The notes: generated by a model from the letters alone, not told the origin. 64,000 nucleotides of DNA from a virus (IMGVR_UViG_3300027836_000009:1-64000), one strand, 5' to 3'. Counted from the stretch's first letter, positions 19,599 through 43,309 are shown. Program-made: numbers and translations.

Positions 19599-19787
19599 AT
19601 GAATAACGGACACTTAAAAACTTTTGAGGATTTCGCAAAAGAACTTAAGAACAAAATCCCACAAGAAGGTGATAAGAAGCCTGAGAAAAAAAGCAAAATC
19701 ATATTAGGGCCAGATCCTCAGAACTCTTCGTCACCAACAAGTCAGGAAACTAATGTAGGAGCAAAATATCCTAATGGCGGATTATGA
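19599..19787 (+). CDS. Putative internal head protein (CTS-like N-terminus)
   Basis: MNNGHLKTFEDFAKE; likely start ATG 19599. Confidence 0.6.
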   Translation: MNNGHLKTFEDFAKELKNKIPQEGDKKPEKKSKIILGPDPQNSSSPTSQETNVGAKYPNGGL

Positions 19788-19966
19788 AAAAAACATTAAA
19801 AACATACGAAGAATTTATTGGTGATAAGTCAATGGATAAAGTTATTAAACATAGCAAGACAGTTAAAGTTGTGTCAACTAATACAAACAATCCTGGAAAA
19901 GAATATGACGATGAAGAAGATGGTGGAGACACACTTAATCAAAGTCCTTTAAATGGAAACAGATAA
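19784..19966 (+). CDS. Putative internal head protein (CTS-like)
   Basis: MKKTLKTYEEFI. Confidence 0.6.
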   Translation: MKKTLKTYEEFIGDKSMDKVIKHSKTVKVVSTNTNNPGKEYDDEEDGGDTLNQSPLNGNR

Positions 19967-20081
19967 CATGCCTGAGAGGAAAAGCTTTAGGGAATTATGG
20001 TCAATGAACTTGACCCTTTATTTGTTTATTCTTATTAAGGATACTTTAAGAAAGAATAAATATAGAAAATAATAAATTATA

Positions 20082-21236
20082 ATGTCATTACTAAATTACC
20101 AAGATTTCTTATTTGAAACATACGGCAAAATAAAATTGAGTGAAGCTCGTGAAAACTTGTTGAGAACAATATCAAAGTCGTATCTTTTAGAAGAAGAACA
20201 GTATGTTTTAGATTTTGTTATTCAAGAAGGCTTAACCAACGATTTCTTTTCGTTATATGAATCAAACGATGATATTATTCAAGAAAATTTTATTCAAAAA
20301 GCTAAAGAAAGATACGATAGAGCTAAAGAAGAAATAAAATCTCGCGGTAAAGAAGCACTCGATAAAATGAGTGATGCTACTAAAAATCTGGTTCAAGTTG
20401 GTGGAAACATATTAAAGCCAATTAAAACAATAATGCAAAAAATTGGTGAAGCAATTAAAAAGGCTTGGGAAGAAGCAAAAGCAATTGCGAATGAAGCAGT
20501 AAACAAGTATAAAGATAAGATATCCGAGAAAATCAAAAACTTAATTAAAGATAGCGATAAAAAGAAAAAGCTTAAAGACGAATTAAAAAATTTAGGCGAG
20601 ATGATTAGCGCAGGCACAAAGTACATCACAAGCGGTTTTTCTACTGACGCTGAAAAAGCTGCAGCTGCTGCTGCCTCATCTGATGATAAAAATGAATCTT
20701 TTTTAAACTACATTGAGTATGCAATATTAAACGAAATAACATCGGAAATTAATAAAGGCGTAAACATTGATGATATAATTGAATCCCTTAATGAAGAAGG
20801 ACACGGTCACGAGAAAAAAGGAGGGTTAAACATTCCCTTTGTAAGTAAAGTGATGAGCAAAATAGGTCATATGCCTCCGTTTAAATACTTTCACGATTTA
20901 GGCGCAAAAGCTGAAGATTTTACAAATAACAAATTATCACGAGCAAGTTTCTTAGTAAATAAAGTTGCTGATGGGCCTGCTCCTTATGAATATGTTGTTT
21001 TTGGATCTCTCGTTGGTGTTGCTGTTGGTTATTACACTGAAACATTTGCTAAAACTGGTGCTTTAGGCATACTTGCTGAATTTGGTATTCCAGGACTAGT
21101 CATTTTAAAAAGTTTAATTGGTGGAATAGGTCTTGCTTTAGCAATTTACGGAATTGCTGAATCCTTAGTTGGTAGCGAAGGCGAAGAGAAAAAGGAAGAA
21201 GAGAAGGAAGAAGACGAAAAAAAAGAAGAAGAATAA
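20082..21236 (+). CDS. Putative internal head protein, helical, with C-terminal hydrophobic segments and acidic tail
   Basis: MSLLNYQDFLFE; many internal (L/I)xE sites; Gly-rich hydrophobic helices. Confidence 0.65.
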   Translation: MSLLNYQDFLFETYGKIKLSEARENLLRTISKSYLLEEEQYVLDFVIQEGLTNDFFSLYESNDDIIQENFIQKAKERYDRAKEEIKSRGKEALDKMSDATKNLVQVGGNILKPIKTIMQKIGEAIKKAWEEAKAIANEAVNKYKDKISEKIKNLIKDSDKKKKLKDELKNLGEMISAGTKYITSGFSTDAEKAAAAAASSDDKNESFLNYIEYAILNEITSEINKGVNIDDIIESLNEEGHGHEKKGGLNIPFVSKVMSKIGHMPPFKYFHDLGAKAEDFTNNKLSRASFLVNKVADGPAPYEYVVFGSLVGVAVGYYTETFAKTGALGILAEFGIPGLVILKSLIGGIGLALAIYGIAESLVGSEGEEKKEEEKEEDEKKEEE

Positions 21237-22306
21237 TGACATTAAAACTTTACGAACAGTGGTTACTGACTGAAGGTGGCTGGGCTACAACAAAAACACA
21301 AGGGACAGTTATCAAGCCTCTTATTATTGCTGACTGCGTTAAAAAGACACGAGTTATTGCTGAAGAGTTTGCAGCTCACTGTAAAACTGTTGAACTGCCG
21401 CCTCTTGAATTTACAAAGCCAATCGGCAGCGGTACATGGTATGAAGAAGATATCGTATCACAGCCTGACAAAGTTTACGGAGACGTAGACTTTATGGTGT
21501 CTTATCCTGTTTTGGAATTAACAGGGAAAGATCGTCGTGCTGATGAAATCGCAACGGTTAAACTTTACAATAAAGAACTGATTGACTTCTTAAAGAATAA
21601 AAGATATTCGTTTATTGATATTGCTGAAACAATGACAGTTTCAAATGATGTATCATTAAAGTTTATTATGGAAGTTGAAACACCTGAAGGTGAAGGATGG
21701 ATTCAAGTAGACATTGTTGTTACGCATACTGATTATAAAGAATGGGCAATCTTTAGAATGACTCCTATTCGTAATGTAAAAGGATTTGTACTTGGTAACT
21801 TATATTCTTCTTTTGGAGAAGTTCTTGAAGTAAGTATTCAGCCTCGTGGAGTTAGAGCAAAATTTGCTGGTACTCAAATGGTTGCATATAGTAAAAGAGC
21901 TGGTACTGAGGAAAAACTTCTTACAGCAAACATTCAAACATTTATGCATGATATTGCTCGATTCTTTTGGGAAACAAGTGGCACTGATAAACCTTATGAA
22001 GAATCGTCTTCATTAAAAAGATGGAAAGGTATCAATCCACAGAACCCACGTTTTGAAGATCTTTGTGATGGGATTCGTGGAGTTGCTGAAACACTTGAGC
22101 AACTTGGTGAATTTGGCAGTGTTATCAAATATAAATCAGCAAAAGAATTATTAGATGCAGTAAAGAAGAGATATATAGAAAAGATGGAAACTGCAGGTAA
22201 CGCAGAGAAATTAAACAAAGCTGAAACGCCATCGGCAATTGCAGCTGCTGAAAAATTACGTAAGTTTGTTAAGGATTACACCGAATTAGCAGACAAGCTA
22301 TTATAA
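21236..22306 (+). CDS. Pol-beta-superfamily nucleotidyltransferase-like protein with CTS-like N-terminus
   Basis: MTLKLYEQWLLTEG; IGSG...GDVDF...IQVD triad. Confidence 0.65.
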   Translation: MTLKLYEQWLLTEGGWATTKTQGTVIKPLIIADCVKKTRVIAEEFAAHCKTVELPPLEFTKPIGSGTWYEEDIVSQPDKVYGDVDFMVSYPVLELTGKDRRADEIATVKLYNKELIDFLKNKRYSFIDIAETMTVSNDVSLKFIMEVETPEGEGWIQVDIVVTHTDYKEWAIFRMTPIRNVKGFVLGNLYSSFGEVLEVSIQPRGVRAKFAGTQMVAYSKRAGTEEKLLTANIQTFMHDIARFFWETSGTDKPYEESSSLKRWKGINPQNPRFEDLCDGIRGVAETLEQLGEFGSVIKYKSAKELLDAVKKRYIEKMETAGNAEKLNKAETPSAIAAAEKLRKFVKDYTELADKLL

Positions 22307-22309
22307 GGT

Positions 22310-22930
22310 ATGGAGTCAAACATATTAGTTGCTATAGTCACAGGGATATCATCAATCACAGTTGCGGTCATTACGGTCGTTGTTAAGGATTGGCTTGATA
22401 AAAGGAAAGTTGCTGAAAAAACAGCAAAAGATGAATGTGTTAAACATGAAGATTTGGACAACATGATGTATGTTCAAGAATTCATTGAAGCATTACGATT
22501 AGAATATAATTTTGACAGAGCTGGCATTTGTCAATTTCACAACGGAGGAAAGTTCTTTAAAGGACATTCAATGAAAAAATTTTCAATGAGTTTTGAGACA
22601 ACCAAACCAGGTATTGAAAAGATTAAACGTGGTATGCAAAATATCATGGTTTCAGAATTTCCTCATCTTATAAATGGTTTATTAAATGAAAATAGTTTAA
22701 CCATATATCAAGATACACAAGGCTTCCCAGCAACAACACGTGAAATGATATCTAACGGCATTGTTCAATCTATAAATATTCCTATCCGTGGTTTAAGCGG
22801 AGATCTTGCAGGATTTGTATTCTTGCACAATATTGGGGATCCTGGGGATCCAAGTGAAATGGTTAGTGAAGACGCAATTGATGATCTTTGCCGCCGAACA
22901 GATCAGATCTCAGGATACATTTTAAAATAA
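22310..22930 (+). CDS. Membrane-anchored GAF-domain protein, T4 holin T-like
   Basis: N-terminal TM; DRAGICQFHNG; PIRGLSGDLAGFVFL. Confidence 0.55.
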   Translation: MESNILVAIVTGISSITVAVITVVVKDWLDKRKVAEKTAKDECVKHEDLDNMMYVQEFIEALRLEYNFDRAGICQFHNGGKFFKGHSMKKFSMSFETTKPGIEKIKRGMQNIMVSEFPHLINGLLNENSLTIYQDTQGFPATTREMISNGIVQSINIPIRGLSGDLAGFVFLHNIGDPGDPSEMVSEDAIDDLCRRTDQISGYILK

Positions 22931-22941
22931 ACAAAATCATA

Positions 22942-23229
22942 ATGAAAAACTTATTAACAGGCTTAAAATGGTTAAAGACTGAAATACTTAATATGTATTC
23001 TTCAAGACCCACTTTTTTTTCAAAAAAACGTGTTGAGTCAGGAGTTGCATTTCTTATAGGACAATGGGGTATGGTGTTCTTTCTTTTAGAAAAACATACT
23101 ATTATGACAACTAGTGATTTAGCAATATGGGCTGGTATTGAATTTGCAGTATCAGGATATATGCTTAGCCAAATACAAAAAGAAAAGAAATCAGCAGTTC
23201 CGACTACAGAAGAAATAACAGAAAACTAA
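22942..23229 (+). CDS. Two-TM membrane protein
   Basis: SKKR followed by two hydrophobic segments; likely start ATG 22942. Confidence 0.65.
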   Translation: MKNLLTGLKWLKTEILNMYSSRPTFFSKKRVESGVAFLIGQWGMVFFLLEKHTIMTTSDLAIWAGIEFAVSGYMLSQIQKEKKSAVPTTEEITEN

Positions 23230-23232
23230 TAT

Positions 23233-23430
23233 ATGAAATACATTAAAACATTTGAAGCTTATTTGAATGAGCTTGAACTTCCTTTAAAAGGTGAAGACGA
23301 AAACACAAAAGGCAATAAAGACGTTGCAGCTGGTGAAGAAGAAGATGTAGTGAAAGGCGATGAAAAAGCTGACGCTAAAGGCGAAGAGGAAGAAGAGAAA
23401 GAAGAAGAAATTGATGCTGACGAAGCATAA
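23233..23430 (+). CDS. Acidic putative internal head protein (CTS-like)
   Basis: MKYIKTFEAYLNE. Confidence 0.7.
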   Translation: MKYIKTFEAYLNELELPLKGEDENTKGNKDVAAGEEEDVVKGDEKADAKGEEEEEKEEEIDADEA

Positions 23431-23444
23431 AATTATTTTATACA

Positions 23445-23819
23445 ATGAAAAACTTACAAACATACCAAGAATTCTTAAATGAACAAGAAGAAATTCTAAA
23501 CGAAGACATCAATTTGATAACAACAGTTATGTTGCTAGGTCAGGCTACGATTGTTGCAGCTGCAGTAATGGCAAGAGCGGGATATGATACACCCGATGAA
23601 AAATTAGCAGAGTGGTGGAATAAATGGAAAAGAGATCGTAGAGTTAATAAGATTTTAGATAAACTTAATGCTGATTCAGAAGTTCAACAATTTCTTACAT
23701 TGCCTCCTAAAGAACAAGAAGGTAAATGGAAAAAACTTGTAGATACAAAACTTAATAAAGAGGATAAAGATCTTCTTAATTCAATTTCTAGAGACCGAGT
23801 TAAAAAAGGTAAAATATAA
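23445..23819 (+). CDS. Putative internal head protein (CTS-like)
   Basis: MKNLQTYQEFLNE...ILNE. Confidence 0.7.
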   Translation: MKNLQTYQEFLNEQEEILNEDINLITTVMLLGQATIVAAAVMARAGYDTPDEKLAEWWNKWKRDRRVNKILDKLNADSEVQQFLTLPPKEQEGKWKKLVDTKLNKEDKDLLNSISRDRVKKGKI

Positions 23820-24280
23820 TGAAACACATAAAAACATTTGAGTCATACGTTAAAGAAGGCGTTGAGAAAAACAGCAAAGTTCTTGAATCCGAAGAATCTG
23901 TAAATGAATCAACAGATATAGATGTATCTGCATTAAGCGATGGTATGCTAAAAGAATTACGTAAGGTATTTAACGGTGTAAAGCATGGACTGTCTAATAA
24001 CGATTTACAGTTATTAGCAAAGATTACGATGGAGATCAAGAAAAGAGGTATTAAAGAATCTGTAGATGAATCTGTTATTAATGAAGGTATCATGTCATTA
24101 ACCGCATACTATAAGGATTATGATAGAGATGTAACTACTCCTGCTAAGAAAATTGATGATATACTTAATAAAGAAATTAAATCAGTTAGTAGCAAAAATG
24201 CTGTATTAGATTTGATTACTGATTTGGTTGAAGAATATGCAGTTGAATATGCAGACAACCGAGATCAAGAAAGATATTAA
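23819..24280 (+). CDS. Putative internal head protein (CTS-like) with repeated xNE/xES sites
   Basis: MKHIKTFESYVKE; SVNES; IKESVDESVINE. Confidence 0.7.
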   Translation: MKHIKTFESYVKEGVEKNSKVLESEESVNESTDIDVSALSDGMLKELRKVFNGVKHGLSNNDLQLLAKITMEIKKRGIKESVDESVINEGIMSLTAYYKDYDRDVTTPAKKIDDILNKEIKSVSSKNAVLDLITDLVEEYAVEYADNRDQERY

Positions 24281-24293
24281 AAATAAAATAAAA

Positions 24294-24599
24294 ATGAAAA
24301 ATATACACACATTTGAAGAGTTCTTAAATGAAGGAAAAGTTTCTTTTTCTAAAATGGAATTCACAGTAGCTTCGTTTGTAGATAACAAAGGACTTGCTAT
24401 TCAGTTTCTAGCAAATAATAAAACTTTAGACAATTTTAGTGCTAATGCAATGGTAAATGCAATAACTGCAATGATAAACAAAAACATATCTGACTTAAAT
24501 GGACTTTTATATTATGAAATTGGTAATGTAGCTGCAGGTATAGTATTTAGATTAGATCAATATGAATTTGGTAAAATGATAGAAAAACGACTTAAATAA
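24294..24599 (+). CDS. Putative internal head protein (CTS-like)
   Basis: Likely start ATG 24294: MKNIHTFEEFLNE. Confidence 0.7.
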   Translation: MKNIHTFEEFLNEGKVSFSKMEFTVASFVDNKGLAIQFLANNKTLDNFSANAMVNAITAMINKNISDLNGLLYYEIGNVAAGIVFRLDQYEFGKMIEKRLK

Positions 24600-24600
24600 T

Positions 24601-25146
24601 ATGAAATACGTACATACATTTGAAAGTTTCTTAAATGAAAAATTTGCTGATAAATATCCTAAGCAAATGTATATTGAACTACAGCCTAATGACATTTCTG
24701 ATTATGCTGATGAATTAGCAAATCTTGTAAATGTAGCATATGCTGATAAAGGCGGTAATCTTGAAATTAAGAACGGCGCAGATTTAAGAAAGTCTGACAT
24801 TACTTATTGGGTAGCAAAAGATATTGATGAAGATCCTAATGCAGATGTTGCAGTTGGAGGTAAGAAAACACCACATGGTGTTAAGATGACAGTTATGGGC
24901 CAAGATGGTTCTCGTGAAGCAAAAAAGGACGCAATCTTAAAAATGATTGAACTTATGAAGACTCGTGGTTTTTATGCTGAACTTGATACTGACTTAGCAC
25001 AAAAGTTAAATCTTACTCACGTTAAAGACGAAAAGAAAATACGTGATGTATTAAACAAAGACATTACTTATTTTAAAGACGGATCTTATGATCGTGATAT
25101 TGCTGGAGATACACATAGAAAAGTTCTTGTAGGAATGCCAAAATAA
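24601..25146 (+). CDS. Putative internal head protein (CTS-like), globular domain of unknown function
   Basis: MKYVHTFESFLNE. Confidence 0.7.
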   Translation: MKYVHTFESFLNEKFADKYPKQMYIELQPNDISDYADELANLVNVAYADKGGNLEIKNGADLRKSDITYWVAKDIDEDPNADVAVGGKKTPHGVKMTVMGQDGSREAKKDAILKMIELMKTRGFYAELDTDLAQKLNLTHVKDEKKIRDVLNKDITYFKDGSYDRDIAGDTHRKVLVGMPK

Positions 25147-25154
25147 TTCTAATC

Positions 25155-25859
25155 ATGAAATACATTAATAATTTTTCGGGTTGGGTTAACGAAAGTGTAT
25201 CAAGCAATGAAGCTGATAAAATCGTTTATGGAAATCAGCCAAAAGATTTACAAAAGTTAGCAGACGATAAAAACGATCCTATAAAAAATTGGTTTATAGA
25301 AAAAGGATTCGTTGATACGATTGTAAAAGAAACACCACTTAATAGCGGATCTCAAACAAGAAAAGATCTTGATACTATAGTTGAGAAAATGTCAAAAGCT
25401 ACGCCTGAAGATTTAGCGTTTGCTCGTTACATAGATGATGAAGCAAATATATCAAAAACTTTTATTGATTTATTAGGTAAATACGGACATAAAGTTTTTG
25501 AAGAAGAACATTTGTTTGTTGAAACTCAATCCGACGCAATCTTATTTTATTTAAAAGACGTAATTAATAGACCAAGACCGTATCAACTTGCTTATTATTA
25601 TAAAATTGATTTATACCCACTTATCAGAACTAACGCAATGACAGCTTCTTATCCAAGTGGACATGCTTTAGCAGGTATTATGATGAGTGAACATTACGCA
25701 AAACTTTATCCTGATGCTTCAGTTGAATTAAAAGAATTAGGAAACAAAATTGCTAACAGTAGAGAACTAACAGGAATTCATTATTCTTCTGATACAGAAA
25801 TATCTCGTAAGATATCAAAAATCATTATTGATAATAACTTGCTACAAATAAAAAAATGA
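25155..25859 (+). CDS. PAP2-superfamily phosphatase with CTS-like N-terminus
   Basis: KxxxxRPRP, SYPSGH, SRxxxGIHYxSD; MKYINNFSGWVNE. Confidence 0.88.
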   Translation: MKYINNFSGWVNESVSSNEADKIVYGNQPKDLQKLADDKNDPIKNWFIEKGFVDTIVKETPLNSGSQTRKDLDTIVEKMSKATPEDLAFARYIDDEANISKTFIDLLGKYGHKVFEEEHLFVETQSDAILFYLKDVINRPRPYQLAYYYKIDLYPLIRTNAMTASYPSGHALAGIMMSEHYAKLYPDASVELKELGNKIANSRELTGIHYSSDTEISRKISKIIIDNNLLQIKK

Positions 25860-26059
25860 AATTCTTAAAGTTCTTTTTTATAACAGGAACACAAAGGTGG
25901 GGTTCATTTATGTGGCTAGGTACACATTATAGCATGACACAAACAGATTGGCATTGGGTTCTTGAAACCTCATTATGCATAGGATTAGATTTGTTGCTTG
26001 TAATAGGTGTATTTTTAGAATGGAAAGAAATTCATAAACATAAAGATTCCGAAAACTAA
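25856..26059 (+). CDS. Small membrane protein
   Basis: ATGA overlap; hydrophobic segments. Confidence 0.55.
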   Translation: MKFLKFFFITGTQRWGSFMWLGTHYSMTQTDWHWVLETSLCIGLDLLLVIGVFLEWKEIHKHKDSEN

Positions 26060-26079
26060 ATAGACAGTTGTGTATATAA
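26053..26079 (+). promoter_or_regulatory. Class A promoter
   Basis: AAACTA-N13-GTATATAA. Confidence 0.7.
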
Positions 26080-26110
26080 TTTAAAATATTATTAATCTAA
26101 ACAAATTATT

Positions 26111-26332
26111 ATGGCACACTGGACAGTAAGAGTTAAGACTACTGAGGAAACTGATGACGGAAAGCTAATTAGAAAAATTGAGCCTTTCTTAGTAAAAGCA
26201 GATACAATTGAAGAATCACAAGCAAGAATTCGCGAGTACTTTAAAGGTATGACACTTGATTATGAATTTCATAGTGTAAGTAAAAGCAACATCATCGGTT
26301 ACATTGACAGTGAAGGTAATGTTTCAGAATAA
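26111..26332 (+). CDS. DUF4494-like protein
   Basis: W-x-V-x-V...DGK..KIEPFLVKADTIEESQARI resembles the Bacteroidota DUF4494 family. Confidence 0.65.
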   Translation: MAHWTVRVKTTEETDDGKLIRKIEPFLVKADTIEESQARIREYFKGMTLDYEFHSVSKSNIIGYIDSEGNVSE

Positions 26333-26350
26333 GAAACAATAAACGACTTT

Positions 26351-26374
26351 AGAGGGACTTTGTCCCTCTTTTTT
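26351..26374 (+). terminator. Rho-independent terminator
   Basis: AGAGGGAC-TTT-GTCCCTCT followed by a T-run. Confidence 0.88.
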
Positions 26375-26385
26375 AATTATCCCTT

Positions 26386-27360
26386 ATGAGTATAGAAAAA
26401 GTTTATATAGGTGATCTATATGTAGGAGATCTACATACTACAGATCCACAGTTTGAGCAAAAACTGAATAACATCAAAAATATAGTTGCTCAAGATTCTT
26501 TCTTAGAATTGTATCAAGCTATTGATGATGCACTCCCACAACAACTTGTAAAAGTTATTGGACCAAAACTTAAAAATCTAATCCAAACCTATTATTTAGG
26601 CGGTCCTGAAAATTTGCATATTCTTATAGAGCAAATTAAAAATCCAATCAACATAACACACGAATTAAGATCTTTTGTAGATCCTATTGAAATTTTAACC
26701 AATCATTATTCTTCTCTACCAAGAGAGTTCTTTGAAATTCTTTTTAAGGAACAGCCTGGTGATATGGGTCCTAGCGAATTACTTTTTACAATTTTTACAA
26801 GTCTTTCAAAAAGCGATAAAGGTGATTTATATGATTCTGAATATGATCGTAAGATTGAAGTAAAAGGCAGAAATGGTCGTTTGAGTGGAAAATGCAAAAT
26901 GCTAACTGGCTTATGTGCACTTGAAAAAATTAACAAGATTTTTGACTCAAACATTGAAAGCAGAGGAATAACAAAAGGTATTTTAGTTTTTGACATATAT
27001 AAGTTATTGAAACATAAGGACCTTTCTTTTGAAGAAGCTAAAGAATTCATTGACTCGCTTTCACAATTCCCAGAATCTTTTACATCAAGTAAACAACATC
27101 TTATTTTAAAAATATTGCATGGCCTATCCAAACCTGAAGATTTAGTTAACATTTTTATTGCTGTTCAAATTTTAAGTTACACAGATCATGGAGGTTTTAA
27201 TGATTTGTTAATCTTTAGTGATAAGAATCGTAAATGTCAGTTACTTAATGTAACCGATGCAACAATTGATGAAATTCTTGAGTATGGAAATCTTATAAGT
27301 TTCTCACCTTGGTATACAGGACATGAAACATCAATAGGTTTGATAAGAAAGACTCGATGA
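26386..27360 (+). CDS. Putative PD-(D/E)XK endonuclease
   Basis: MGPSE...KGDL...IEVKG..GRL catalytic-like pattern. Confidence 0.5.
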   Translation: MSIEKVYIGDLYVGDLHTTDPQFEQKLNNIKNIVAQDSFLELYQAIDDALPQQLVKVIGPKLKNLIQTYYLGGPENLHILIEQIKNPINITHELRSFVDPIEILTNHYSSLPREFFEILFKEQPGDMGPSELLFTIFTSLSKSDKGDLYDSEYDRKIEVKGRNGRLSGKCKMLTGLCALEKINKIFDSNIESRGITKGILVFDIYKLLKHKDLSFEEAKEFIDSLSQFPESFTSSKQHLILKILHGLSKPEDLVNIFIAVQILSYTDHGGFNDLLIFSDKNRKCQLLNVTDATIDEILEYGNLISFSPWYTGHETSIGLIRKTR

Positions 27361-27387
27361 ATATATAAAGAAAATAAAACACAAAAC

Positions 27388-29178
27388 ATGAGTCTTTTAA
27401 ACTACCAAAAATTTATATTAAATGAAGTTAGTATATTTAAAGATAAGTATAAAAAAGGAGGAGGTAAAAGTTTTACATTAAACACAACGTCTTCAAATTC
27501 AGACGCTGTAGAATTTGCGAATTTAATTATTGCTCAAGGAGCTGACGGAAATGGTGAATATCAAAGAGTTGATTATGATGAAAACGCGCCTACTATTAAT
27601 TGGAAAGGGGGAACAACGCATTCTATAACTATAGAAGATAAAAACGGTAAACGATTTAATCTATCATCTAATAGTAAAGATATATTGGGATATGTTTGTT
27701 TGGAATATAGCGAAAAATCTTTAGGCGGGAAACTTGATGCTGCAAAATATGAACAAGGAATTGTTTACTTTTATAATACTCAAGTTATGGGATTAGACGA
27801 AGATCAAGCTATTGCGCAAGGATCTCTTAATGATTCTGATACAGGATGGTTTACTAAACTTGAGAAAACATGTTTAGGCGTTGCTAAACAATTAGATTCT
27901 AATTTAGGACCTTTAATTTGGTCAGGAAGCGATTCTGTAAATACTAGTGCTGACTGGAAAAGCAGCGATAAAACGCCTAAGACTGACGTATATTCAGGAA
28001 AATCAAATAGCGGTAAGTTTTCTGTTAAAAAAACAGGTGGCTCACAATTAATGAGCGGGACTACTGAAGCAAAAGATGTGTTTAACGCTGCGCTTCAATA
28101 CTATAATCACTTTGAGAAAAAGAAATCTATCGTGTCTCCTGCTTTTATTGAAAATTTATCAAAAAAGGTTTCATATGTAGTTAAATCTGAAGAAGGCATT
28201 CAAAAACTTAAAGCAAATGCTCAAGAAGCATGGGTTTCTTTTAGATTAGGAACAGTATTAGATACAATACGCAAAAATAAACTTACATTGCCTATTGTTT
28301 TTCAAAAAGATCCAAATCGCCCAGCAACTGATAAAGCAATATCTGACGCAGCAGACGCTCACACAAAAGCTGAATTTGCATCAGCAGGAATTGGTGATAG
28401 ACGTGGAAATTGGGAAAGCAATTTAATTAAAGGCATTGATGACGGCCAGAAAATTTTTAATGGCTGGTGGGAAAAATCTTATTTGCCTACATTAGCATCT
28501 GTGCAGAAAGATGTATTATTAACAACCGTTTTAGAAGCTACTCAAGATCATCGTGAAGTACAAGAATCTTTAAGGGATGTTTTTCAAAATGATCCTGATT
28601 TTTTAAAGTGGCTTATTTATGAAGCCGCAACAGGGCAAGTAAAATTTAGCGGAAATGTCAATATTGATTCATCCACTGGTGTTACAGCAATTGCTGATAA
28701 GTTTTTGATATTTAATGATACTGGACTTGCTGAGCCTATTGCACCAATTACTATTGGATGGGCTAAGGATCATATTAAAGAAGTTAAAACAACGGTAGGG
28801 TTTAAGTCATCAGGAAGTAGGTCAGCTTCATCTATAAGATTAGCGATAGGTGGTAAATTAGACGAAAGTGAATCTCTTCAATTATCAGGCATGGAAAGAA
28901 TAATTTTTGAAGAATTTAATAAACTAAATAATGATTTATTAGCATTAAATGAATCCTTTATTGATTCTTTTAAGAAAACACTTAATAACGTAAAAACTTT
29001 TGCGGCTCAAACTTGGACTGCTGTGACAAACGCAATTTCTTATTTTTATCAAAATATAATAGTAAGAATTTCTAAAGCATTTACAGATGTATTCAGTCAA
29101 GGAATTGATGCTATATGTAGTTTTTTTGGTTTTACAATAGACGGAGCAGTTGACGGAGAAATTAACATAAGTTTTTAA
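27388..29178 (+). CDS. Putative internal head protein with a restriction-endonuclease-like domain
   Basis: MSLLNYQKFILNE; YEQG...TPKTDV...FSVKK..GSQLMSG. Confidence 0.55.
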   Translation: MSLLNYQKFILNEVSIFKDKYKKGGGKSFTLNTTSSNSDAVEFANLIIAQGADGNGEYQRVDYDENAPTINWKGGTTHSITIEDKNGKRFNLSSNSKDILGYVCLEYSEKSLGGKLDAAKYEQGIVYFYNTQVMGLDEDQAIAQGSLNDSDTGWFTKLEKTCLGVAKQLDSNLGPLIWSGSDSVNTSADWKSSDKTPKTDVYSGKSNSGKFSVKKTGGSQLMSGTTEAKDVFNAALQYYNHFEKKKSIVSPAFIENLSKKVSYVVKSEEGIQKLKANAQEAWVSFRLGTVLDTIRKNKLTLPIVFQKDPNRPATDKAISDAADAHTKAEFASAGIGDRRGNWESNLIKGIDDGQKIFNGWWEKSYLPTLASVQKDVLLTTVLEATQDHREVQESLRDVFQNDPDFLKWLIYEAATGQVKFSGNVNIDSSTGVTAIADKFLIFNDTGLAEPIAPITIGWAKDHIKEVKTTVGFKSSGSRSASSIRLAIGGKLDESESLQLSGMERIIFEEFNKLNNDLLALNESFIDSFKKTLNNVKTFAAQTWTAVTNAISYFYQNIIVRISKAFTDVFSQGIDAICSFFGFTIDGAVDGEINISF

Positions 29179-29203
29179 CAAAAGAAATTAAAGATAAACG
29201 ATT

Positions 29204-29272
29204 AGGACCGTTTGCTTGTTACGACAAGTTTAGACTGCAGAGATTCGCTATCATCTGCAGTCTTCCTTTTTT
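29204..29272 (+). ncRNA. Candidate structured RNA (three-way junction) that may also act as a terminator
   Basis: AGGA/TCCT closing stem; CTTGT-TACG-ACAAG hairpin; AGACTGCAGA...TCTGCAGTCT hairpin; T-run. Confidence 0.45.
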
Positions 29273-29273
29273 A

Positions 29274-29299
29274 GAACTATTTCAAATTGATGAATATAA
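29274..29299 (+). promoter_or_regulatory. Class A promoter
   Basis: GAACTA-N12-GAATATAA. Confidence 0.7.
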
Positions 29300-29315
29300 T
29301 ATAAAAATCATAATT

Positions 29316-29555
29316 ATGTCAAACGAAAATTTAGAAAAATTAGAAAAATTAGAAAACATAACATATCCTGATTGGGATAACGTTATCGTACAATTGTGCC
29401 AAGGTGAAAAAGGAATTGCTAACATCAAAATGCAACGTCAAGATATGGAAGCAATTCAAGCATTACATGGAAGTGAAAGAACTGAAGTTATTGAAATGAT
29501 GCTTCAAGCACTTGAAGAACAAGTTAAACAATCTGAACCAACACAAGAAGATTAA
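29316..29555 (+). CDS. Hypothetical protein
   Basis: 79-aa ORF after a promoter. Confidence 0.7.
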   Translation: MSNENLEKLEKLENITYPDWDNVIVQLCQGEKGIANIKMQRQDMEAIQALHGSERTEVIEMMLQALEEQVKQSEPTQED

Positions 29556-29881
29556 TGCCTTACGTAAAAGATTTTACGGAACTTACAGGTAAAGGATCTT
29601 TTAGTATGGAAGTTCCTAATTGGGTGCCTTTAACGATTGAATATGGATATGATCGTATAAGTTTAGCAACATATTTTTTCTGGCGCATATCAGGAACACA
29701 ACACACCTTTCGTATTAATTATAACGATTTAATGACAGAAACAAATGGGAATTTGGAAGAACATATTTCAACGTTTCTCAAAGGATTCAGAAACGACTAT
29801 CTTACCTGGGCCCGAGACGGTTTCTCCGTTGACTGGATGCGAGAATACCACAGAGAATACAGAAATTTTATTGAACTTTAA
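29555..29881 (+). CDS. Hypothetical protein
   Basis: TAATG coupling. Confidence 0.7.
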   Translation: MPYVKDFTELTGKGSFSMEVPNWVPLTIEYGYDRISLATYFFWRISGTQHTFRINYNDLMTETNGNLEEHISTFLKGFRNDYLTWARDGFSVDWMREYHREYRNFIEL

Positions 29882-29909
29882 AGAGGGAATATATACTAAA
29901 ACAAAAACA

Positions 29910-30488
29910 ATGAGTGATATTAAAACTTTCCAATGGCTTAAAGGCGAAAGATCAGGGGAATTCGTAAAATGGGATGGTACAATAGTTCAAGACGGGGATC
30001 TTAACTTTTTACAATTTGAAGACGGATCACGAGGTAACGAAAATTTATTAAACGATTTTTTCATTGAGGTACCTAGTGAACACGAGCCTTTTTACATTAC
30101 GGAAAAAATGGAAAATAAGTATGCACAGGATGTTCAAACAATGAATGACCATTTGCATAATTCACATGAATTAAAACAACAAGATTCGTTTCCAGCACCC
30201 GGCATTTTTCAAACTAACACACAGCCAGATAACCCAATTGCTAAATTGTTAAAAGATAGTAAGAAAATAAAATCATCTATAGAAATTTCGATTGTAGTTG
30301 ACATACCACCGATTGAACTTATGAAGGTTTTGTCTGATTCTTATGACGATGGTGAAAAACGAGTTCTTGATTATTTGTCAAGCAGTTTAAGTTCAGAAGA
30401 TATTAAGAAACAAATAGCCCATCAGATTTGGGTAAATTCATTCGCAAAAAAGAAAACGAAAAGCACAAGAATAAATGAAGCAATATAA
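29910..30488 (+). CDS. Hypothetical protein
   Basis: Likely start ATG 29910 (MSDIKTFQW) after AATATATA. Confidence 0.7.
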   Translation: MSDIKTFQWLKGERSGEFVKWDGTIVQDGDLNFLQFEDGSRGNENLLNDFFIEVPSEHEPFYITEKMENKYAQDVQTMNDHLHNSHELKQQDSFPAPGIFQTNTQPDNPIAKLLKDSKKIKSSIEISIVVDIPPIELMKVLSDSYDDGEKRVLDYLSSSLSSEDIKKQIAHQIWVNSFAKKKTKSTRINEAI

Positions 30489-32052: not shown

Positions 32053-32054
32053 AA

Positions 32055-32306
32055 TTAATTAGGTATAGCTGGTGACGATTTAGGTTTCTCACCAGTTTTT
32101 AAATATCCTTTAATTGCTTGCATATTATGATGCGCAATCGTAATCTTATCTTGAACCCAAGCTTCTAAATCAACATCATCATTAATCATACCAGCGATAT
32201 CTTGAGCATCTTTTGATATTTCTTCCAATTTTGGTTTATACATAAACCCTTCAGACTCTTCGTTCATATCTTGAACGTATTCATTATAGCTTTTAACTGT
32301 ACTCAT
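32055..32306 (-). CDS. Putative internal head protein (CTS-like)
   Basis: MSTVKSYNEYVQDMNE; LEAWVQDKIT motif. Confidence 0.7.
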   Translation of the reverse strand: MSTVKSYNEYVQDMNEESEGFMYKPKLEEISKDAQDIAGMINDDVDLEAWVQDKITIAHHNMQAIKGYLKTGEKPKSSPAIPN

Positions 32307-32324: not shown

Positions 32325-32361
32325 TATATATTTATGTGTCATTTACATAAAGTAATATATA
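32325..32361. promoter_or_regulatory. Divergent pair of class B promoters
   Basis: AATATATA on the - strand (32325-32332) and + strand (32354-32361) between divergent genes. Confidence 0.55.
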
Positions 32362-35310: not shown

Positions 35311-35312
35311 AT

Positions 35313-36818: not shown

Positions 36819-36835
36819 AAATGAATATATAAATT

Positions 36836-39708: not shown

Positions 39709-39724
39709 ACCAAATATTAAAAAT

Positions 39725-40291: not shown

Positions 40292-40336
40292 TTAGTTATC
40301 TTAGGGTATGATATATACCTTAACAAAAATAAAAAT

Positions 40337-41533
40337 ATGATCATTCAAAAAACATTAGAAGAAGCGTCTTGGGAAGCAATAATGCAACAAGACAAGAAGA
40401 CTCCCAACCCGGAGATCTTGGAGAAGTACGGAGTAAAAGTTTTTAACAATCAGCCTTATGCTTTAGAGTATTACGAAAAGGTGTTTTTAGGTTCGGATCC
40501 TGAAAGTAAAGAACCAATTATTGGGGAATCTCGTAGAATCTTAACTATCAATTCAGTTAACGATAAAGATATGTTAGTTACATTAAGTGGATTTGTTGAA
40601 GCCTCAATTGATATTAGAGGTGAAAAACATTTCTGTTCTTTAATGAATACTACGCCAGCTGATTTATTAGAGTGGTTAAAAGAAACTGAAAACAGAGAAT
40701 CGTTTGTTGCTAGCGGACATACCGTTATTGTTGAAATGATTAAGCCGTATGTTAAAGCTTCAATTTCAAAAGGACATTCATTAAAAATGAAGTCTGAATT
40801 CTTTGGGGAAATTCGTAAACCGTCTGCGGCATATTACGGAAAAATCAAAGAAAAGAACGGAGGAGGATTTATTATTAACGTACAAGGAATTGACGGATTC
40901 TTACCTGGGTCATTAGCTGCAACAAATATCGTTCGTGATTTTGACTCAATGTTAGGAAAAGAAATTCCAGTAATGGTTGAAGATTACTTAAAAGAAAGTG
41001 ACACATTTGTTTTTTCTTATAAGAAATATATTAGTACTGTGATGAACAGTAAAATTAATGAACTTGATTTAGACAAAAAATACGCAGGTACAGTAACTGG
41101 AAGTGCGAAGTATGGTGTCTTTGTTGAATTTGATGAACTTTTTACAGGTTTAATTCATACAAGCAAAATGACTCCGGAATTGCATAACAAATTTGTTAAA
41201 GGAACATTTAAATCTGGAGACAAAGTTGAATTTTGGATAAAAGAAATTACTGACGATAAGAAATTGATCTTAACTGATGAAGATCCTTCAATTCGTCGTA
41301 ATCAATTAGAAGAATTCAAAACTGCAAGCCTAGGAAAAATTGTTGAAGCTGAAGTTGTTTCAGTTCAACCGTTTGGTGTACTATTTAAAGTTCAAAAAGA
41401 TATTGTTGGTTTAGTTTCCCAAAAAGAAATCAAGACCAAGAAAAAGAACTACTCAATTGGTGACAAAGTAATGGTTACAATTGATAGAGTTCACAACGAT
41501 AAAATTTTCCTTTCACTGCCAAATGAAGATTAA
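40337..41533 (+). CDS. Ribosomal protein S1-like multi-S1-domain protein
   Basis: GGFIINVQGIDGFLPGS; GTVTGSAKYGVFVEF..FTGLIHTS; AEVVSVQPFGVL. Confidence 0.85.
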   Translation: MIIQKTLEEASWEAIMQQDKKTPNPEILEKYGVKVFNNQPYALEYYEKVFLGSDPESKEPIIGESRRILTINSVNDKDMLVTLSGFVEASIDIRGEKHFCSLMNTTPADLLEWLKETENRESFVASGHTVIVEMIKPYVKASISKGHSLKMKSEFFGEIRKPSAAYYGKIKEKNGGGFIINVQGIDGFLPGSLAATNIVRDFDSMLGKEIPVMVEDYLKESDTFVFSYKKYISTVMNSKINELDLDKKYAGTVTGSAKYGVFVEFDELFTGLIHTSKMTPELHNKFVKGTFKSGDKVEFWIKEITDDKKLILTDEDPSIRRNQLEEFKTASLGKIVEAEVVSVQPFGVLFKVQKDIVGLVSQKEIKTKKKNYSIGDKVMVTIDRVHNDKIFLSLPNED

Positions 41534-42938
41534 AAAGAACTACTCAAAAGCTGAAGTACTTGACGGAATTAAAATAGGATTCGAGTTTGAATTCTATTCC
41601 TCACTTGATGTTTTTGAAACTGCAAAACAATTAGCTAAATATACTAAGAAGAGAGTGGTAGTTCCACTTTCTCTTAGTGATATTTCAAATCCTAAACCAC
41701 TTTACCATTCACCAGTTACACCAACTGCTGATATCTTTAAACTTGAACCTGATTACTCAGGAGGTAAAAAGATGTGTGAACTTGTAACAGGACCTATAAA
41801 ATATGCAGATGCCAGAAACATCTTAATTAAAGTTTTTGAGTGGATTCAATCAAATGGTTATACAAATGAAAGATGTTCAATTCACGTTAACATGAGTATT
41901 GACGGTGATGTTGTTCCAACTTTATACACAATTCAAAACATAAACATACCAAAGTTTATTCTTTCGTTTGATGAAAACAAAATTTTTGACAAATTTCCTG
42001 AACGTAAAGATAGTGTTTATGCAAGAAGTATAAAACAAATCAGACCTAACCGAGTTCTTTTTTATTCTCCAACGCTTGAAGATTTTAGTCGTTCAACACT
42101 TAATCTTCCGTCTGACGAAAAATACTACGGTGTTAACTTTTTGAAAGCTGAGAAAGGATATCTTGAATATCGTTACTTAGGTGGGAAAGATTATCAAAAG
42201 AAAAGCAAAGTTATTCTTGACATAATTGATTACCAAGCTTTACATTTATTTGACACACTTAACTTTACAGGTTTTAGTGATAAAGAAAGAGCTGACTTTA
42301 AAAAGATGATAGATCTTGACAAAAAGATTTATGAAGGCTTTAGTAAATATTCGGAATTTAGAAAGAAATTTCCTGATATTAAAGTTGGTGTTGATATGGT
42401 TGACGATCCACAAGTTCTTGAAGCTGTTTGGGGTAATTTGAGAGAGAAATTATATGAATTAATCGTTACAGGTAAAATGTCAAAAGGTGAGTTTAATTAC
42501 GATACTGAATTAGGACGTTACCAATTGAAGAAAACAAAACTTAAAAACTGTAATCTTTCTGATTTTGAATTTATTGATTGTGAAATAGAAGGTATTATGA
42601 CAAGATCTTGGTTTTACGAATGTAAAATTAAAAACAGTCGTATAACAGAAAGTGAGTTTTTAAAAGCAAACACAATTGACTTTTCAAAAATTGCTGATAG
42701 TGAATTACATGTAGGTAATACTTGTAATGACTGTTACATTGAGAATAAAAAAATGAGTATCAACTGTGAAGTTAATGCTGGTGTTATTCGTAACGGCGAA
42801 ATTGGTAAATTAGCAAAAATATCAAAAGATACACTTATCGTTGAAGGTCAGCCTGCTGAATCTGGAAACGCTGGTAGTAGTTCTTATAGTGATCCTAATC
42901 AAGATAAGAATAATAAGAAAAAAATAAAAGAAAAATAA
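41523..42938 (+). CDS. Putative amidoligase (COOH-NH2 ligase) with C-terminal beta-helix-like repeats
   Basis: IGFEFEF, EPDYS, ELVTGP, CSIHVN, KYYGVN, LEYRYLGG; likely start ATG 41523. Confidence 0.75.
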   Translation: MKIKKNYSKAEVLDGIKIGFEFEFYSSLDVFETAKQLAKYTKKRVVVPLSLSDISNPKPLYHSPVTPTADIFKLEPDYSGGKKMCELVTGPIKYADARNILIKVFEWIQSNGYTNERCSIHVNMSIDGDVVPTLYTIQNINIPKFILSFDENKIFDKFPERKDSVYARSIKQIRPNRVLFYSPTLEDFSRSTLNLPSDEKYYGVNFLKAEKGYLEYRYLGGKDYQKKSKVILDIIDYQALHLFDTLNFTGFSDKERADFKKMIDLDKKIYEGFSKYSEFRKKFPDIKVGVDMVDDPQVLEAVWGNLREKLYELIVTGKMSKGEFNYDTELGRYQLKKTKLKNCNLSDFEFIDCEIEGIMTRSWFYECKIKNSRITESEFLKANTIDFSKIADSELHVGNTCNDCYIENKKMSINCEVNAGVIRNGEIGKLAKISKDTLIVEGQPAESGNAGSSSYSDPNQDKNNKKKIKEK

Positions 42939-42940
42939 TC

Positions 42941-43309
42941 ATGAAGTACATTAAAAAATTTGAAGATTATGTTGCTTCTTATAAAGACAGCAATCTTCAA
43001 AATGATGACGAGGAACAATTCAAAAAAGCTGCAAAAGTAACAACTAACGAAAGTGGTTTTGTTATTGAATATAATGATGATAAAGTTACAATTGAAAGCG
43101 GTCTTGATGAAGGTAATGAAGAAGTTCCTGTAGATGAAATTGCTGAAGCACTAAAAAAACTTGGCGCTGAAACTGTTACTTTTGAAAATGAAGATGGTGA
43201 AACTGAATCTCATCCAGTTAATGAGTTTTTAAGAAAATTGAATCCGCTTCGTTGGAAATTATCAAAGAAACATAGGTCAATTGCTGGTGCAATAAAAGAC
43301 GACGAATAA
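42941..43309 (+). CDS. Acidic putative internal head protein (CTS-like)
   Basis: MKYIKKFEDYV. Confidence 0.6.
   Translation: MKYIKKFEDYVASYKDSNLQNDDEEQFKKAAKVTTNESGFVIEYNDDKVTIESGLDEGNEEVPVDEIAEALKKLGAETVTFENEDGETESHPVNEFLRKLNPLRWKLSKKHRSIAGAIKDDE

What the first reader, a model, noticed from the sequence alone, without database searches (positions are those of the whole stretch)
19599..43309. Family of 13 unrelated proteins sharing a T4 capsid-targeting-like N-terminal peptide: a candidate injected-protein arsenal
Seen N-termini: MNNGHLKTFEDFAKE (19599), MKKTLKTYEEFI (19784), MSLLNYQDFLFE (20082), MTLKLYEQWLLTE (21236), MKYIKTFEAYLNE (23233), MKNLQTYQEFLNE (23445), MKHIKTFESYVKE (23819), MKNIHTFEEFLNE (24294), MKYVHTFESFLNE (24601), MKYINNFSGWVNE (25155), MSLLNYQKFILNE (27388), MSTVKSYNEYVQDMNE (32306, - strand), MKYIKKFEDYV (42941). 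Consensus is [ILV]-x-x-[FY]-x-x-[FYW]-[LIV]-x-E, and the bodies are unrelated. Known: T4 internal proteins carry a roughly 10-aa CTS (MKTYQEFIAE-like) that directs packaging into the prohead and is removed by gp21 after (L/I)-x-E. Inference: a modular tag-plus-cargo system much larger than T4's three internal proteins, with six tandem cassettes at 23233-25859 and enzymatic cargo delivered with the DNA.
Basis: partly seen in the sequence, partly recalled or inferred. Interest (0 to 1): 0.82.

Follow-up and report, generated by a model that had tools for sequence, protein, structure and literature searches.

The report
T4-like capsid-loading tags on many genes
A fragment of an uncultured giant phage puts a short N-terminal peptide, nearly the one phage T4 uses to load proteins into its head, on at least 16 unrelated proteins including two enzymes, so it probably packs a much larger protein cargo than T4; no experiment has tested this.

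Summary
All 13 N-termini are in the sequence. The motif heads 13 of 88 genes where about 0.5 is expected (P about 3e-14), and the bodies share no similarity. Three more members lie beyond the window.

A scoring matrix built only from these 13 tags picks the N-termini of T4 IPIII and IPII as its two best hits in the whole T4 genome. In a 238-kb relative it finds about 30 tagged genes, many around a T4-type capsid gene and an S77 (gp21-type) head protease.

Orthologue comparisons place the leader/body junction exactly after [LIV]-x-E, the T4 protease cut motif.

- One cargo is a pol-beta/PolX-like nucleotidyltransferase (model pLDDT 94, tag disordered).
- Another is a PAP2 phosphatase with all three catalytic motifs.

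The tagged genes carry the same promoter-like box as the baseplate genes.

Weak points:
- The 92-kb contig (about 32% of the genome) holds no protease or capsid gene.
- Virion presence, cleavage and injection are untested.
- Some members may be prohead-core parts rather than effectors.

PAU and another jumbo phage each carry their own different tag on about 20 proteins. This scan has noted the same phenomenon on other genomes. I found no paper describing it.

The parts
19574..19581 (+). promoter-like box GATATATA, 17 nt before the first tagged gene; heads the run 19599-26332
   Evidence: the same [GA]ATATATA box lies 17-30 nt upstream of the baseplate/fibre genes 32383, 36836, 40337, 58104 and 72812; hairpin terminator 19548-19565 just upstream
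19599..19787 (+). tagged gene, 62 aa, MNNGHLKTFEDFAKE|
19784..19966 (+). tagged gene, 60 aa, MKKTLKTYEEFIGD (no E at the junction)
20082..21236 (+). tagged gene, 384 aa, MSLLNYQDFLFE|; coiled-coil middle, Gly-rich hydrophobic C-terminal segments, poly-E tail
   Evidence: weak PHROG matches to tape-measure proteins
21236..22306 (+). tagged gene, 356 aa, MTLKLYEQWLLTE|GGWATTKTQ; pol-beta/PolX-like nucleotidyltransferase
   Evidence: invariant GS...GDxD...D; model pLDDT 94.3 with residues 1-12 below 50; pol beta Z 10.8; junction conserved in 71 of 72 representatives that have sequence ahead of the GGW motif
23233..23430 (+). tagged cassette 1, 65 aa, MKYIKTFEAYLNE|; 44% D+E
23445..23819 (+). tagged cassette 2, 124 aa, MKNLQTYQEFLNE|; 6 of 8 identical to the T4 core TYQEFIAE
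23819..24280 (+). tagged cassette 3, 153 aa, MKHIKTFESYVKE|
24294..24599 (+). tagged cassette 4, 101 aa, MKNIHTFEEFLNE|
24601..25146 (+). tagged cassette 5, 181 aa, MKYVHTFESFLNE|; orthologue in G005 has the same junction
25155..25859 (+). tagged cassette 6, 234 aa, MKYINNFSGWVNE|; PAP2 / class A acid phosphatase-like enzyme
   Evidence: Pfam PAP2 25.9 bits, cut-off 27.2; PDB acid phosphatases E 7e-6; motifs KX6RP, PSGH and SRX5HX3D present
26351..26369 (+). terminator-like hairpin closing the run of genes that starts at 19599
27360..27367 (+). promoter-like box AATATATA, 20 nt before 27388
27388..29178 (+). tagged gene, 596 aa, MSLLNYQKFILNE|; widespread phage family whose members carry different leaders
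32055..32306 (-). tagged gene, 83 aa, MSTVKSYNEYVQDMNE|; promoter-like box at 32332 on the minus strand
42941..43309 (+). tagged gene, 122 aa, MKYIKKFEDYVAS (no cut motif after the tag), between the amidoligase and neck-like genes

Best explanation
The shared peptide is a capsid (prohead-core) targeting sequence of the T4 type.

Inferred mechanism:
1. The tagged proteins are made late, together with the structural proteins.
2. The amphipathic h-x-x-[FY]-x-x-[FYW]-h helix docks them to the scaffolding core while the gp23-type shell assembles around it.
3. The S77 (gp21-type) head protease removes the tag after [LIV]-x-E.
4. The mature proteins stay in the head with the DNA.

The cargo set includes a PolX-like nucleotidyltransferase, a PAP2 phosphatase, membrane-segment proteins and many small proteins of unknown function. 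It is far larger than T4's and turns over quickly between relatives.

Shown here: the tag family, its N-terminal specificity, its likeness to the T4 CTS, the leader/body junction, the enzyme identities, and the protease and capsid genes in relatives.

Inferred: docking, cleavage and virion residence. Least certain: ejection into the host and action there.
For: (1) Enrichment: 13 of 88 N-termini against 0.54 expected.

(2) A matrix built from the 13 tags alone, scanned over all six frames of T4, ranks the IPIII and IPII N-termini first and second at 20.1 bits. The T4 leaders were read from NC_000866: MKTYQEFIAE|A and MKTFKEF...ITE|A.

(3) The same matrix on relative G005 (238 kb, 53% identity in a 1215-aa protein): 13 of the 16 hits at 17.5 bits or more are ORF N-termini. 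In G001, which uses another tag, only 1 of 11 hits is.

(4) G005 has a gp23-family capsid protein (132.7 bits) starting MNLLNE|, an S77/S80 protease, and 17 tagged genes within 30 kb of it. S77 is also present in G007, G008, PAU, LR756500, G001, G002 and G003.

(5) Junction evidence:
- Orthologue pairs keep the residues after E while the leaders differ, for example ..LLTE|GGWATTKTQGT against ..FIAE|GGWATTKTQGT, and ..FITE|GKKG against ..FLAE|GKKG.
- Of the 86 of the 150 best-listed representatives of the NTase family (186 in all) that show the GGW motif, 45 have a short leader ending [LIVMF]xE, 26 have a long N-extension with the same junction, 14 look leaderless and 1 is other.
- Some 'leaderless' ones hide an in-frame leader with a TTG or GTG start.
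- Homologues of the 596-aa protein carry classic MKSFNSF[IL]xE|AS leaders or other leaders ending LNE.

(6) In the AlphaFold model of 21236 the tag (residues 1-12) has pLDDT below 50 on a body of 94.

(7) The promoter-like box [GA]ATATATA is shared with baseplate and fibre genes.

(8) No identifiable replication, metabolic or tail protein in the contig carries the tag.

(9) PAU depositors annotated three of its tag-bearing proteins as 'internal capsid protein'.

(10) T4 background: the CTS loads internal proteins into the scaffolding core and is removed by gp21 (PMC3012670, PMC5694885).
Against: - No S77 protease, capsid or scaffold gene lies in the 92-kb contig. They are inferred from relatives at about 53% identity.
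- There are no proteomic or N-terminal data for any member.
- The tagged cluster lies next to the baseplate module, not a head module.
- Two to three members (19784, 42941, partly 32306) lack the cut motif right after the tag.
- The mature proteins are mostly net acidic (-16 to +3), whereas T4's mature IPs are net basic (+2 to +10).
- T4 gp61.1, a 54-aa protein beside the primase gene that is not annotated as a virion protein, also starts MKTFKEFIKE, so the peptide alone does not prove packaging.
- The hxE before GGW is also present in long multidomain homologues, so it could partly be a conserved feature of the domain rather than only a cut site.
Confidence: 0.7

Rival explanations
1. The tag does target proteins to the prohead, but most bearers are prohead-core or scaffold accessory proteins. 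Like T4 gp22, gp67 and gp68, they would be chopped up and expelled during maturation rather than injected as effectors.
For: PAU's annotated scaffolding protein gp152 carries the PAU tag, and many tagged ORFs are small and sit between the portal, protease and capsid genes. Several proteins here are small and very acidic, for example 23233 with 44% D+E. In T4 the core proteins are cut into short fragments (PMC5694885).
Against: At least two bearers are full-size enzymes with intact catalytic motifs, which would be pointless if they were degraded. The set turns over fast between relatives: only 8 of 16 have an orthologue in G005. That fits accessory cargo better than an assembly core.
Confidence: 0.15
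2. The peptide is a docking or recognition tag for something other than the head core: attachment to the tail or baseplate, a partner chaperone, or a modifying enzyme that recognises a shared leader (as proposed elsewhere in this scan for a radical-SAM-linked leader).
For: The cluster lies directly upstream of the baseplate module, and 42941 sits inside it. 20082 gives weak tape-measure matches. T4 gp61.1 shows that the peptide occurs on a protein not annotated as a virion protein.
Against: No baseplate, sheath or tube protein has the tag. The tag's nearest match in T4 is the IP leader. In relatives the tagged genes crowd around the protease and capsid genes. No radical-SAM enzyme is present in this contig, G005 or PAU. 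The tag always runs into the protease cut motif.
Confidence: 0.1
3. The similarity reflects DNA-level causes (a translation-initiation sequence, recent duplication, or a recombination cassette boundary) with no role for the peptide itself.
For: The tags are A/T-rich 5' coding sequence in a 32% GC genome. Six cassettes are tandem. In T-even phages the conserved CTS flanks a polymorphic IP locus (Repoila et al. 1994, as cited in PMC3012670).
Against: Codons vary synonymously, and F/Y/W and L/I/V interchange while the spacing is kept. The upstream DNA is unrelated. The motif is kept across phages with about 50% protein identity and resembles T4's peptide.
Confidence: 0.03

Closest known systems
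Capsid targeting sequence (CTS) of phage T4 internal proteins IPI, IPII, IPIII and Alt, removed by the gp21 prohead protease (Mullaney and Black 1996, as cited in PMC3012670 and PMC5694885)
   Same: A 10-20-residue N-terminal leader with an aromatic-x-x-aromatic-hydrophobic core, ending in [LI]xE, placed on otherwise unrelated proteins. The best member shares 6 of 8 core residues with T4 (TYQEFLNE against TYQEFIAE). The lineage has an S77 protease and a gp23-type capsid protein.
   Different: - At least 16 bearers in 92 kb and about 30 in a relative, against a handful in T4.
- The host lineage is probably Bacteroidota; this rests only on the hosts of the cultured relatives.
- The cargo includes a PolX-like NTase and a PAP2 phosphatase.
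- The mature proteins are mostly acidic, not basic.
- The protease in relatives is a 614-635-aa protein with a long C-terminal extension.
- Nothing has been tested experimentally.
Polymorphic internal-protein locus of T-even phages (Repoila et al. 1994, cited in PMC3012670)
   Same: Unrelated bodies behind a conserved CTS, with rapid turnover between related phages and a tandem arrangement.
   Different: There the locus holds a few genes in close relatives of T4. Here there are six tandem cassettes plus dispersed members, and sister lineages have switched to quite different tag sequences (PAU MKTLxxLYE, G001 MNKxELKQLIKEE).
Propeptide-bearing head and ejection proteins of phiKZ-like giant phages (phiKZ, SPN3US), cut by an S80 protease
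   Same: Dozens of head-internal proteins are processed by a gp21-related protease at x-x-E motifs, and some are ejected into the host (PMC5694885, PMC13282480).
   Different: Most of those propeptides are long (four of over 100 residues, one of 79; only gp45's, at 20 residues, is T4-like) and have no common short N-terminal tag (PMC5694885). Here the leaders are short, stereotyped and T4-like.
Sphingomonas phage PAU 'internal capsid proteins' gp142, gp154, gp270 (GenBank JQ362498 annotation)
   Same: PAU is a related jumbo phage that matched the 1215-aa protein at 28.8% identity. These three proteins start with PAU's own shared leader ending KLNE, and PAU encodes an S77 protease.
   Different: The PAU leader sequence differs (MK[TS]LxxLYExKLNE). 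Only 3 of about 20 bearers are annotated, and I found no paper describing the tag family.

Membership tests
T4-type CTS / internal head protein system | Short N-terminal leader resembling the T4 CTS on otherwise unrelated proteins | tested here: met
   The matrix built from the 13 tags ranks T4 IPIII and IPII first and second in the six-frame T4 genome. The bodies are unrelated.
T4-type CTS / internal head protein system | Leader ends in the gp21 cleavage motif (L/I)-x-E | tested here: met
   Eleven of 13 have [LIVAM]-x-E at or just after the tag end (10 if only L/I/V/M is allowed at the first position, since 19599 has AKE); 19784 and 42941 do not. The junction is kept in orthologues and across the NTase family.
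T4-type CTS / internal head protein system | The phage encodes an S77 (gp21-type) prohead protease | tested here: inconclusive
   None in the 92-kb contig, which is 32% complete. Present in the relatives G005, G007 and G008, and in PAU and LR756500.
T4-type CTS / internal head protein system | gp23-type capsid protein assembled on a scaffolding core | tested here: inconclusive
   Not in this contig. G005 has PF07068 Gp23 at 132.7 bits beside the protease. PAU has annotated scaffold and capsid genes.
T4-type CTS / internal head protein system | Leader is a separable module, dispensable for the fold of the body | tested here: met
   Leaders are swapped between homologues, truly leaderless homologues exist (L175, L180), and the tag is disordered in a pLDDT 94 model.
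T4-type CTS / internal head protein system | Proteins are present in virions with the leader removed | not testable with these tools
   This needs virion mass spectrometry. The only hint is the depositors' label 'internal capsid protein' on three PAU bearers.
T4-type CTS / internal head protein system | Late expression together with head genes | tested here: inconclusive
   The promoter-like box [GA]ATATATA is shared with baseplate and fibre genes. There are no expression data.
PAP2 / class A acid phosphatase (gene 25155) | Signature motifs KX6RP, PSGH, SRX5HX3D | tested here: met
   KDVINRPRP, YPSGH and SRELTGIHYSSD are seen in the alignment to 7f18_A, E 7e-6.
PAP2 / class A acid phosphatase (gene 25155) | Pfam PF01569 above the gathering score | tested here: not met
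   25.9 bits against a cut-off of 27.2. A borderline miss, so I call it PAP2-like.
Pol-beta superfamily / family X polymerase-like NTase (gene 21236) | G[SG]...D-x-D...D catalytic pattern | tested here: met
   G64 S65, G82 D83 x D85 and D159 are invariant in 50 sequences.
Pol-beta superfamily / family X polymerase-like NTase (gene 21236) | Palm plus thumb fold of family X polymerases | tested here: met
   VIA-align gives pol beta Z 10.8 (rmsd 3.9, 195 aligned), TdT 10.3 and ASFV PolX 9.9, above the generic NTases at 8.3 or less. Foldseek probability is 1.0 but TM only 0.3-0.48.
Pol-beta superfamily / family X polymerase-like NTase (gene 21236) | Sequence-profile membership (Pfam NTP_transf_2 or DNA_pol_B_palm) | tested here: not met
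   No Pfam or PHROG family and no PDB sequence match. It is a fold-level relative only.

The most novel reading that the evidence does not exclude
Jumbo phages of this T4-related, probably Bacteroidota-infecting group use an expanded 'address code'. Each lineage has a private short N-terminal tag (here hxT[FY]xx[FY]LNE, in PAU MKTLxxLYE, in G001 MNKxELKQLIKEE) that co-evolves with its scaffold and protease. The tag loads 20-35 different, rapidly exchanged proteins into the head, including a PolX-like nucleotidyltransferase, PAP2 phosphatases and LicD-type transferases. These proteins would be injected with the DNA as a pre-made first wave against the host. The tag would then be a sequence-only predictor of injected effectors across thousands of uncultured phages.
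Probability: 0.4. Interest if true: 0.75.

Novelty: new variant of a known kind. Interest (0 to 1): 0.6.

Why it matters
If the tag works as in T4, virion-packaged and possibly injected proteins of uncultured giant phages could be read directly from sequence. It would then point to a large pool of uncharacterised early-acting proteins, including candidate anti-defence factors, DNA-end or nucleotide-modifying enzymes and envelope-lipid phosphatases.

The near-identity of the peptide between T4 and a distant jumbo phage suggests that the CTS, scaffold and S77-protease loading system is ancient. The lineage-specific tag switches offer a natural experiment on how an address code co-evolves with its receptor.

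It also has a practical use. T4's CTS is already used to package foreign proteins, and these phages may offer orthogonal tags.

Tried and rejected
- Megablast of 19000-30000 against 50,697 phage records found no match.
- tblastn of the NTase-like protein against the same records found no match. Its profile was absent from PAU, T4, G001, G002 and LR756500.
- A single-protein scan of IMG/VR with the 596-aa protein found nothing; the alignment was needed.
- Alignment A2 was too divergent for the search for related loci.
- The structure of the 596-aa protein came out poor (pLDDT 57.8, pTM 0.37), so I ran no fold search and make no fold claim.
- Pfam on eight long multidomain homologues of the NTase gave almost nothing.
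- The radical-SAM leader alternative was rejected: no radical-SAM gene in this contig, G005 or PAU.
- 11119 (MGVNAKTFNDLINV) joined the N-terminus cluster. I treat it as a chance member because it has no aromatic pair and no E.
- Literature searches (PMC7824862, PMC13282480) found no description of expanded CTS families in PAU-like or huge phages. This covers the held open-access library only.
Full report
**What the DNA is.** The window is the first 64 kb of a 92,113-bp IMG/VR virus record that CheckV rates about 32% complete. This implies a jumbo phage of roughly 290 kb, with 32% GC.
- It encodes a myovirus baseplate module at 32.4-54 kb: gp5-like hub protein at 38968, baseplate-J-like at 44436, neck-like at 43325.
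- Sheath and tube genes lie at 81-84 kb, and T4-like replication genes (gp32-like SSB, primase, helicase) at 85-91 kb.
- A conserved 1215-aa protein links it to an uncultured 462-kb phage (LR756500, 34% identity). At 25-31% identity it also matches Flavobacterium phage MaF61, Sphingomonas phage PAU, Tenacibaculum phages PTm1/PTm5/pT24, Chryseobacterium phages MA9V-1/2 and the Lak megaphages.
- Closer uncultured relatives exist in IMG/VR at 52-73% identity, including G005 at 238 kb and 84% complete.

**The observation.** All 13 N-termini are present as described.
- The pattern [ILVM]xx[FYW]xx[FYW][ILVA] begins within the first nine residues of 13 of 88 called genes. It occurs 19 times in 28,121 internal positions, two of which are the 19599 and 24294 tags with their later start codons. 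The expectation is 0.54 and P is about 3e-14.
- Three more members lie beyond the window, at 84109, 90800 and 91198.
- The bodies share no detectable similarity; the best pairwise E is 0.017 in a 16-sequence database.
- The DNA under the tags varies synonymously and the upstream DNA is unrelated, so it is the peptide that is conserved.
The others deviate at the last positions, and 19784 and 42941 lack the terminal E.

**Is it the T4 tag?** I read the T4 leaders from NC_000866 rather than from memory. IPII and IPIII start MKTYQEFIAE|A, and IPI starts MKTFKEF...ITE|A.
- A position matrix built only from the 13 window tags, scanned over all six frames of T4, ranks the IPIII and IPII N-termini first and second (20.1 bits). 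Fourth is the N-terminus of gp61.1, a small T4 protein that is not annotated as a virion protein.
- The best member here (23445, TYQEFLNE) shares 6 of 8 core residues with T4.
- The likeness is therefore measured, not recalled. The gp61.1 hit is a reminder that the peptide alone does not prove packaging.

**Independent test in a relative.** I scanned G005 with the same matrix.
- Thirteen of the 16 hits at 17.5 bits or more are ORF N-termini. In all, 26 to about 34 genes are tagged.
- G005 carries a gp23-family major capsid protein (PF07068, 132.7 bits) that itself starts MNLLNE|.
- Next to it is a 614-aa protein with an N-terminal S77/S80 protease domain, and just upstream a tagged LicD-family enzyme.
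- Seventeen tagged genes lie within 30 kb of the protease.
- S77 proteases are also present in G007, G008, PAU, LR756500, G001, G002 and G003.
- The contig under study has none. With two thirds of the genome missing, that absence is uninformative.

**The leader/body junction.** Four lines of evidence agree on where the leader ends.
- (a) Orthologue pairs between this phage and G005 diverge in the leader but resume identity right after the E..LLTE|GGWATTKTQGT against ..FIAE|GGWATTKTQGT..FITE|GKKG against ..FLAE|GKKG, and ..AIRE|AEEK against ..LIRE|AEEK.
- (b) The family of 21236 has 186 representatives among 1.84 billion proteins. Of the 86 among the 150 best-listed that show the mature N-terminal motif GGWxTxKTQ, 45 have a 5-21-residue leader ending [LIVMF]xE, 26 have a long N-terminal extension with the same junction, 14 appear leaderless and 1 is other.
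- Several of the 'leaderless' ones turned out to have an in-frame CTS-like leader with a TTG or GTG start that gene callers missed (KNIKSFTDFLQINE|M, RIIESFQGFLKIQE|M). Their genomes encode S77. Others (L175, L180) are truly leaderless.
- (c) Homologues of the 596-aa protein carry this phage's leader in close relatives. In other phages they carry textbook T4-like leaders (MKSFNSF[IL]xE|AS). In a third group they carry a quite different 55-residue leader that still ends [TS]LNE.
- (d) In a confident AlphaFold model of 21236 (pLDDT 94.3, pTM 0.91), only residues 1-12 fall below pLDDT 50.
- Caveat: because hxE also precedes GGW in long multidomain homologues, part of that conservation could belong to the domain itself.

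**Regulation.** A box [GA]ATATATA lies 17-30 nt upstream of the start codons of the tagged genes 19599, 27388, 32306 (minus strand) and 90800. It lies at the same distance upstream of the baseplate and fibre genes 32383, 36836, 40337, 58104 and 72812. Nine of its 13 plus-strand occurrences are intergenic.
- A hairpin terminator (19548-19565) precedes the first box, and another (26351-26369) closes the run.
- The genes 19599 to 26332, ten of them tagged, therefore look like one late transcription unit.
- This is pattern evidence only.

**Cargo.**
- 25155 is PAP2-like. Pfam gives 25.9 bits, just under the 27.2 cut-off, but class A acid phosphatases in the PDB match at E 7e-6 and all three catalytic motifs are present.
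- 21236 has the invariant GS...GDxD...D pattern. Its model matches the palm-thumb of family X polymerases best (pol beta Z 10.8, TdT 10.3, ASFV PolX 9.9), above the generic nucleotidyltransferases at 8.3 or less.
- The closest viral model to 21236 is the C-terminal part of a 1096-aa ParB/Srx-containing multidomain protein.
- 20082 and the out-of-window 84109 have Gly-rich hydrophobic C-terminal segments.
- The remaining bodies have no family.
- Only 8 of the 16 have an orthologue in G005, so the set turns over fast.
- Unlike T4's basic IPs, most mature proteins here are net acidic.

**A wider pattern.** Clustering N-termini de novo shows that sister lineages have their own tags.
- PAU has MK[TS]LxxLYE on 20 proteins, 16 of them within 30 kb of its protease. 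They include its annotated scaffolding protein and the three proteins its depositors call 'internal capsid protein'.
- The complete 299-kb G001 has MNKxELKQLIKEE...L[KNQ]E on 20 proteins, 14 of them near its protease.
- All of these tags contain or end in [LI]xE.
- The general architecture is therefore a lineage-specific helix followed by a protease site.
- Earlier notes of this scan report the same phenomenon on other genomes. I did not re-test those.

**Verdict.** The best reading (about 0.7) is a T4-type capsid-targeting and processing system, greatly expanded and carrying enzymes.
- Whether the cargo is injected and acts on the host is an inference by analogy with T4 IPI* and Alt (PMC3012670, PMC5694885), at about 0.4.
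- A subset may be prohead-core components.
- I found no paper describing such expanded tag families in PAU-like or huge phages in the held library. The nearest record is the PAU GenBank annotation.
- I class it as a new variant of a known kind, of solid but not exceptional interest. It is directly testable by virion N-terminal proteomics in a cultured relative.

Noticed in passing
window 19574, 27360, 32332(-), 32354, 36824, 40310, 58066; genome 72775, 90774: The box [GA]ATATATA lies 17-30 nt upstream of start codons of structural and tagged genes. It is a candidate late-promoter motif of this phage and differs from T4's TATAAATA, which shows no such placement here.
   Followed up: partly
L143:9224-11065 (G005), also LR756500, G007, G008, G010, G011: In this lineage the S77/S80 prohead protease domain is the N-terminal third of a 614-681-aa ORF with a long, partly coiled-coil C-terminal extension. 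This may be a protease-scaffold fusion, and it is a candidate receptor for the tags.
   Followed up: no
L158, L161, L162, L163, L167, L172 (IMG/VR): Homologues of the NTase that gene callers start at MGGW... have an in-frame CTS-like leader upstream with a TTG or GTG start codon. Automated annotation therefore undercounts tagged proteins.
   Followed up: partly
T4 NC_000866 18966-19130 (gene 61.1): T4 gp61.1, a 54-aa hypothetical protein beside the primase gene, starts MKTFKEFIKE, a CTS-like peptide. In this phage two tagged genes (90800, 91198) also sit just after the helicase and primase genes.
   Followed up: no
L143:11821-12540 (G005): A LicD-family (phosphocholine/phosphotransferase-type) enzyme carries the tag MNIKNYTDWLNE| and lies beside a methyltransferase, just upstream of the head protease gene.
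   Followed up: no
window 40337-42938: A protein with three S1 RNA-binding domains (PF00575, 74.8 bits) overlaps an amidoligase-like protein with a pentapeptide-repeat C-terminus, inside the baseplate/neck module and behind its own ATATATA box. One long homologue of the tagged NTase (P0107) also contains an amidoligase domain.
   Followed up: no
window 20082-21236: This tagged 384-aa protein has a lysine/glutamate-rich coiled-coil middle, weak tape-measure matches, Gly-zipper-like hydrophobic segments near the C-terminus and a poly-Glu/Lys tail. It could be a membrane-inserting ejection protein.
   Followed up: no
window 22310-23229, 25856-26059: Untagged small proteins with N-terminal transmembrane segments are interspersed among the tagged genes in the same transcription unit.
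   Followed up: no
window 27388-29178 family (A1; 270 IMG/VR loci): This is a large, uncharacterised phage protein family with invariant PKTD, SxKxxGG and YEAA[TS]G motifs. The ESM Atlas lists a structurally similar 718-aa cluster (TM 0.39 to a low-confidence model) in which 18% of members carry a PAP2 domain. Its function is unknown and its model was poor.
   Followed up: partly
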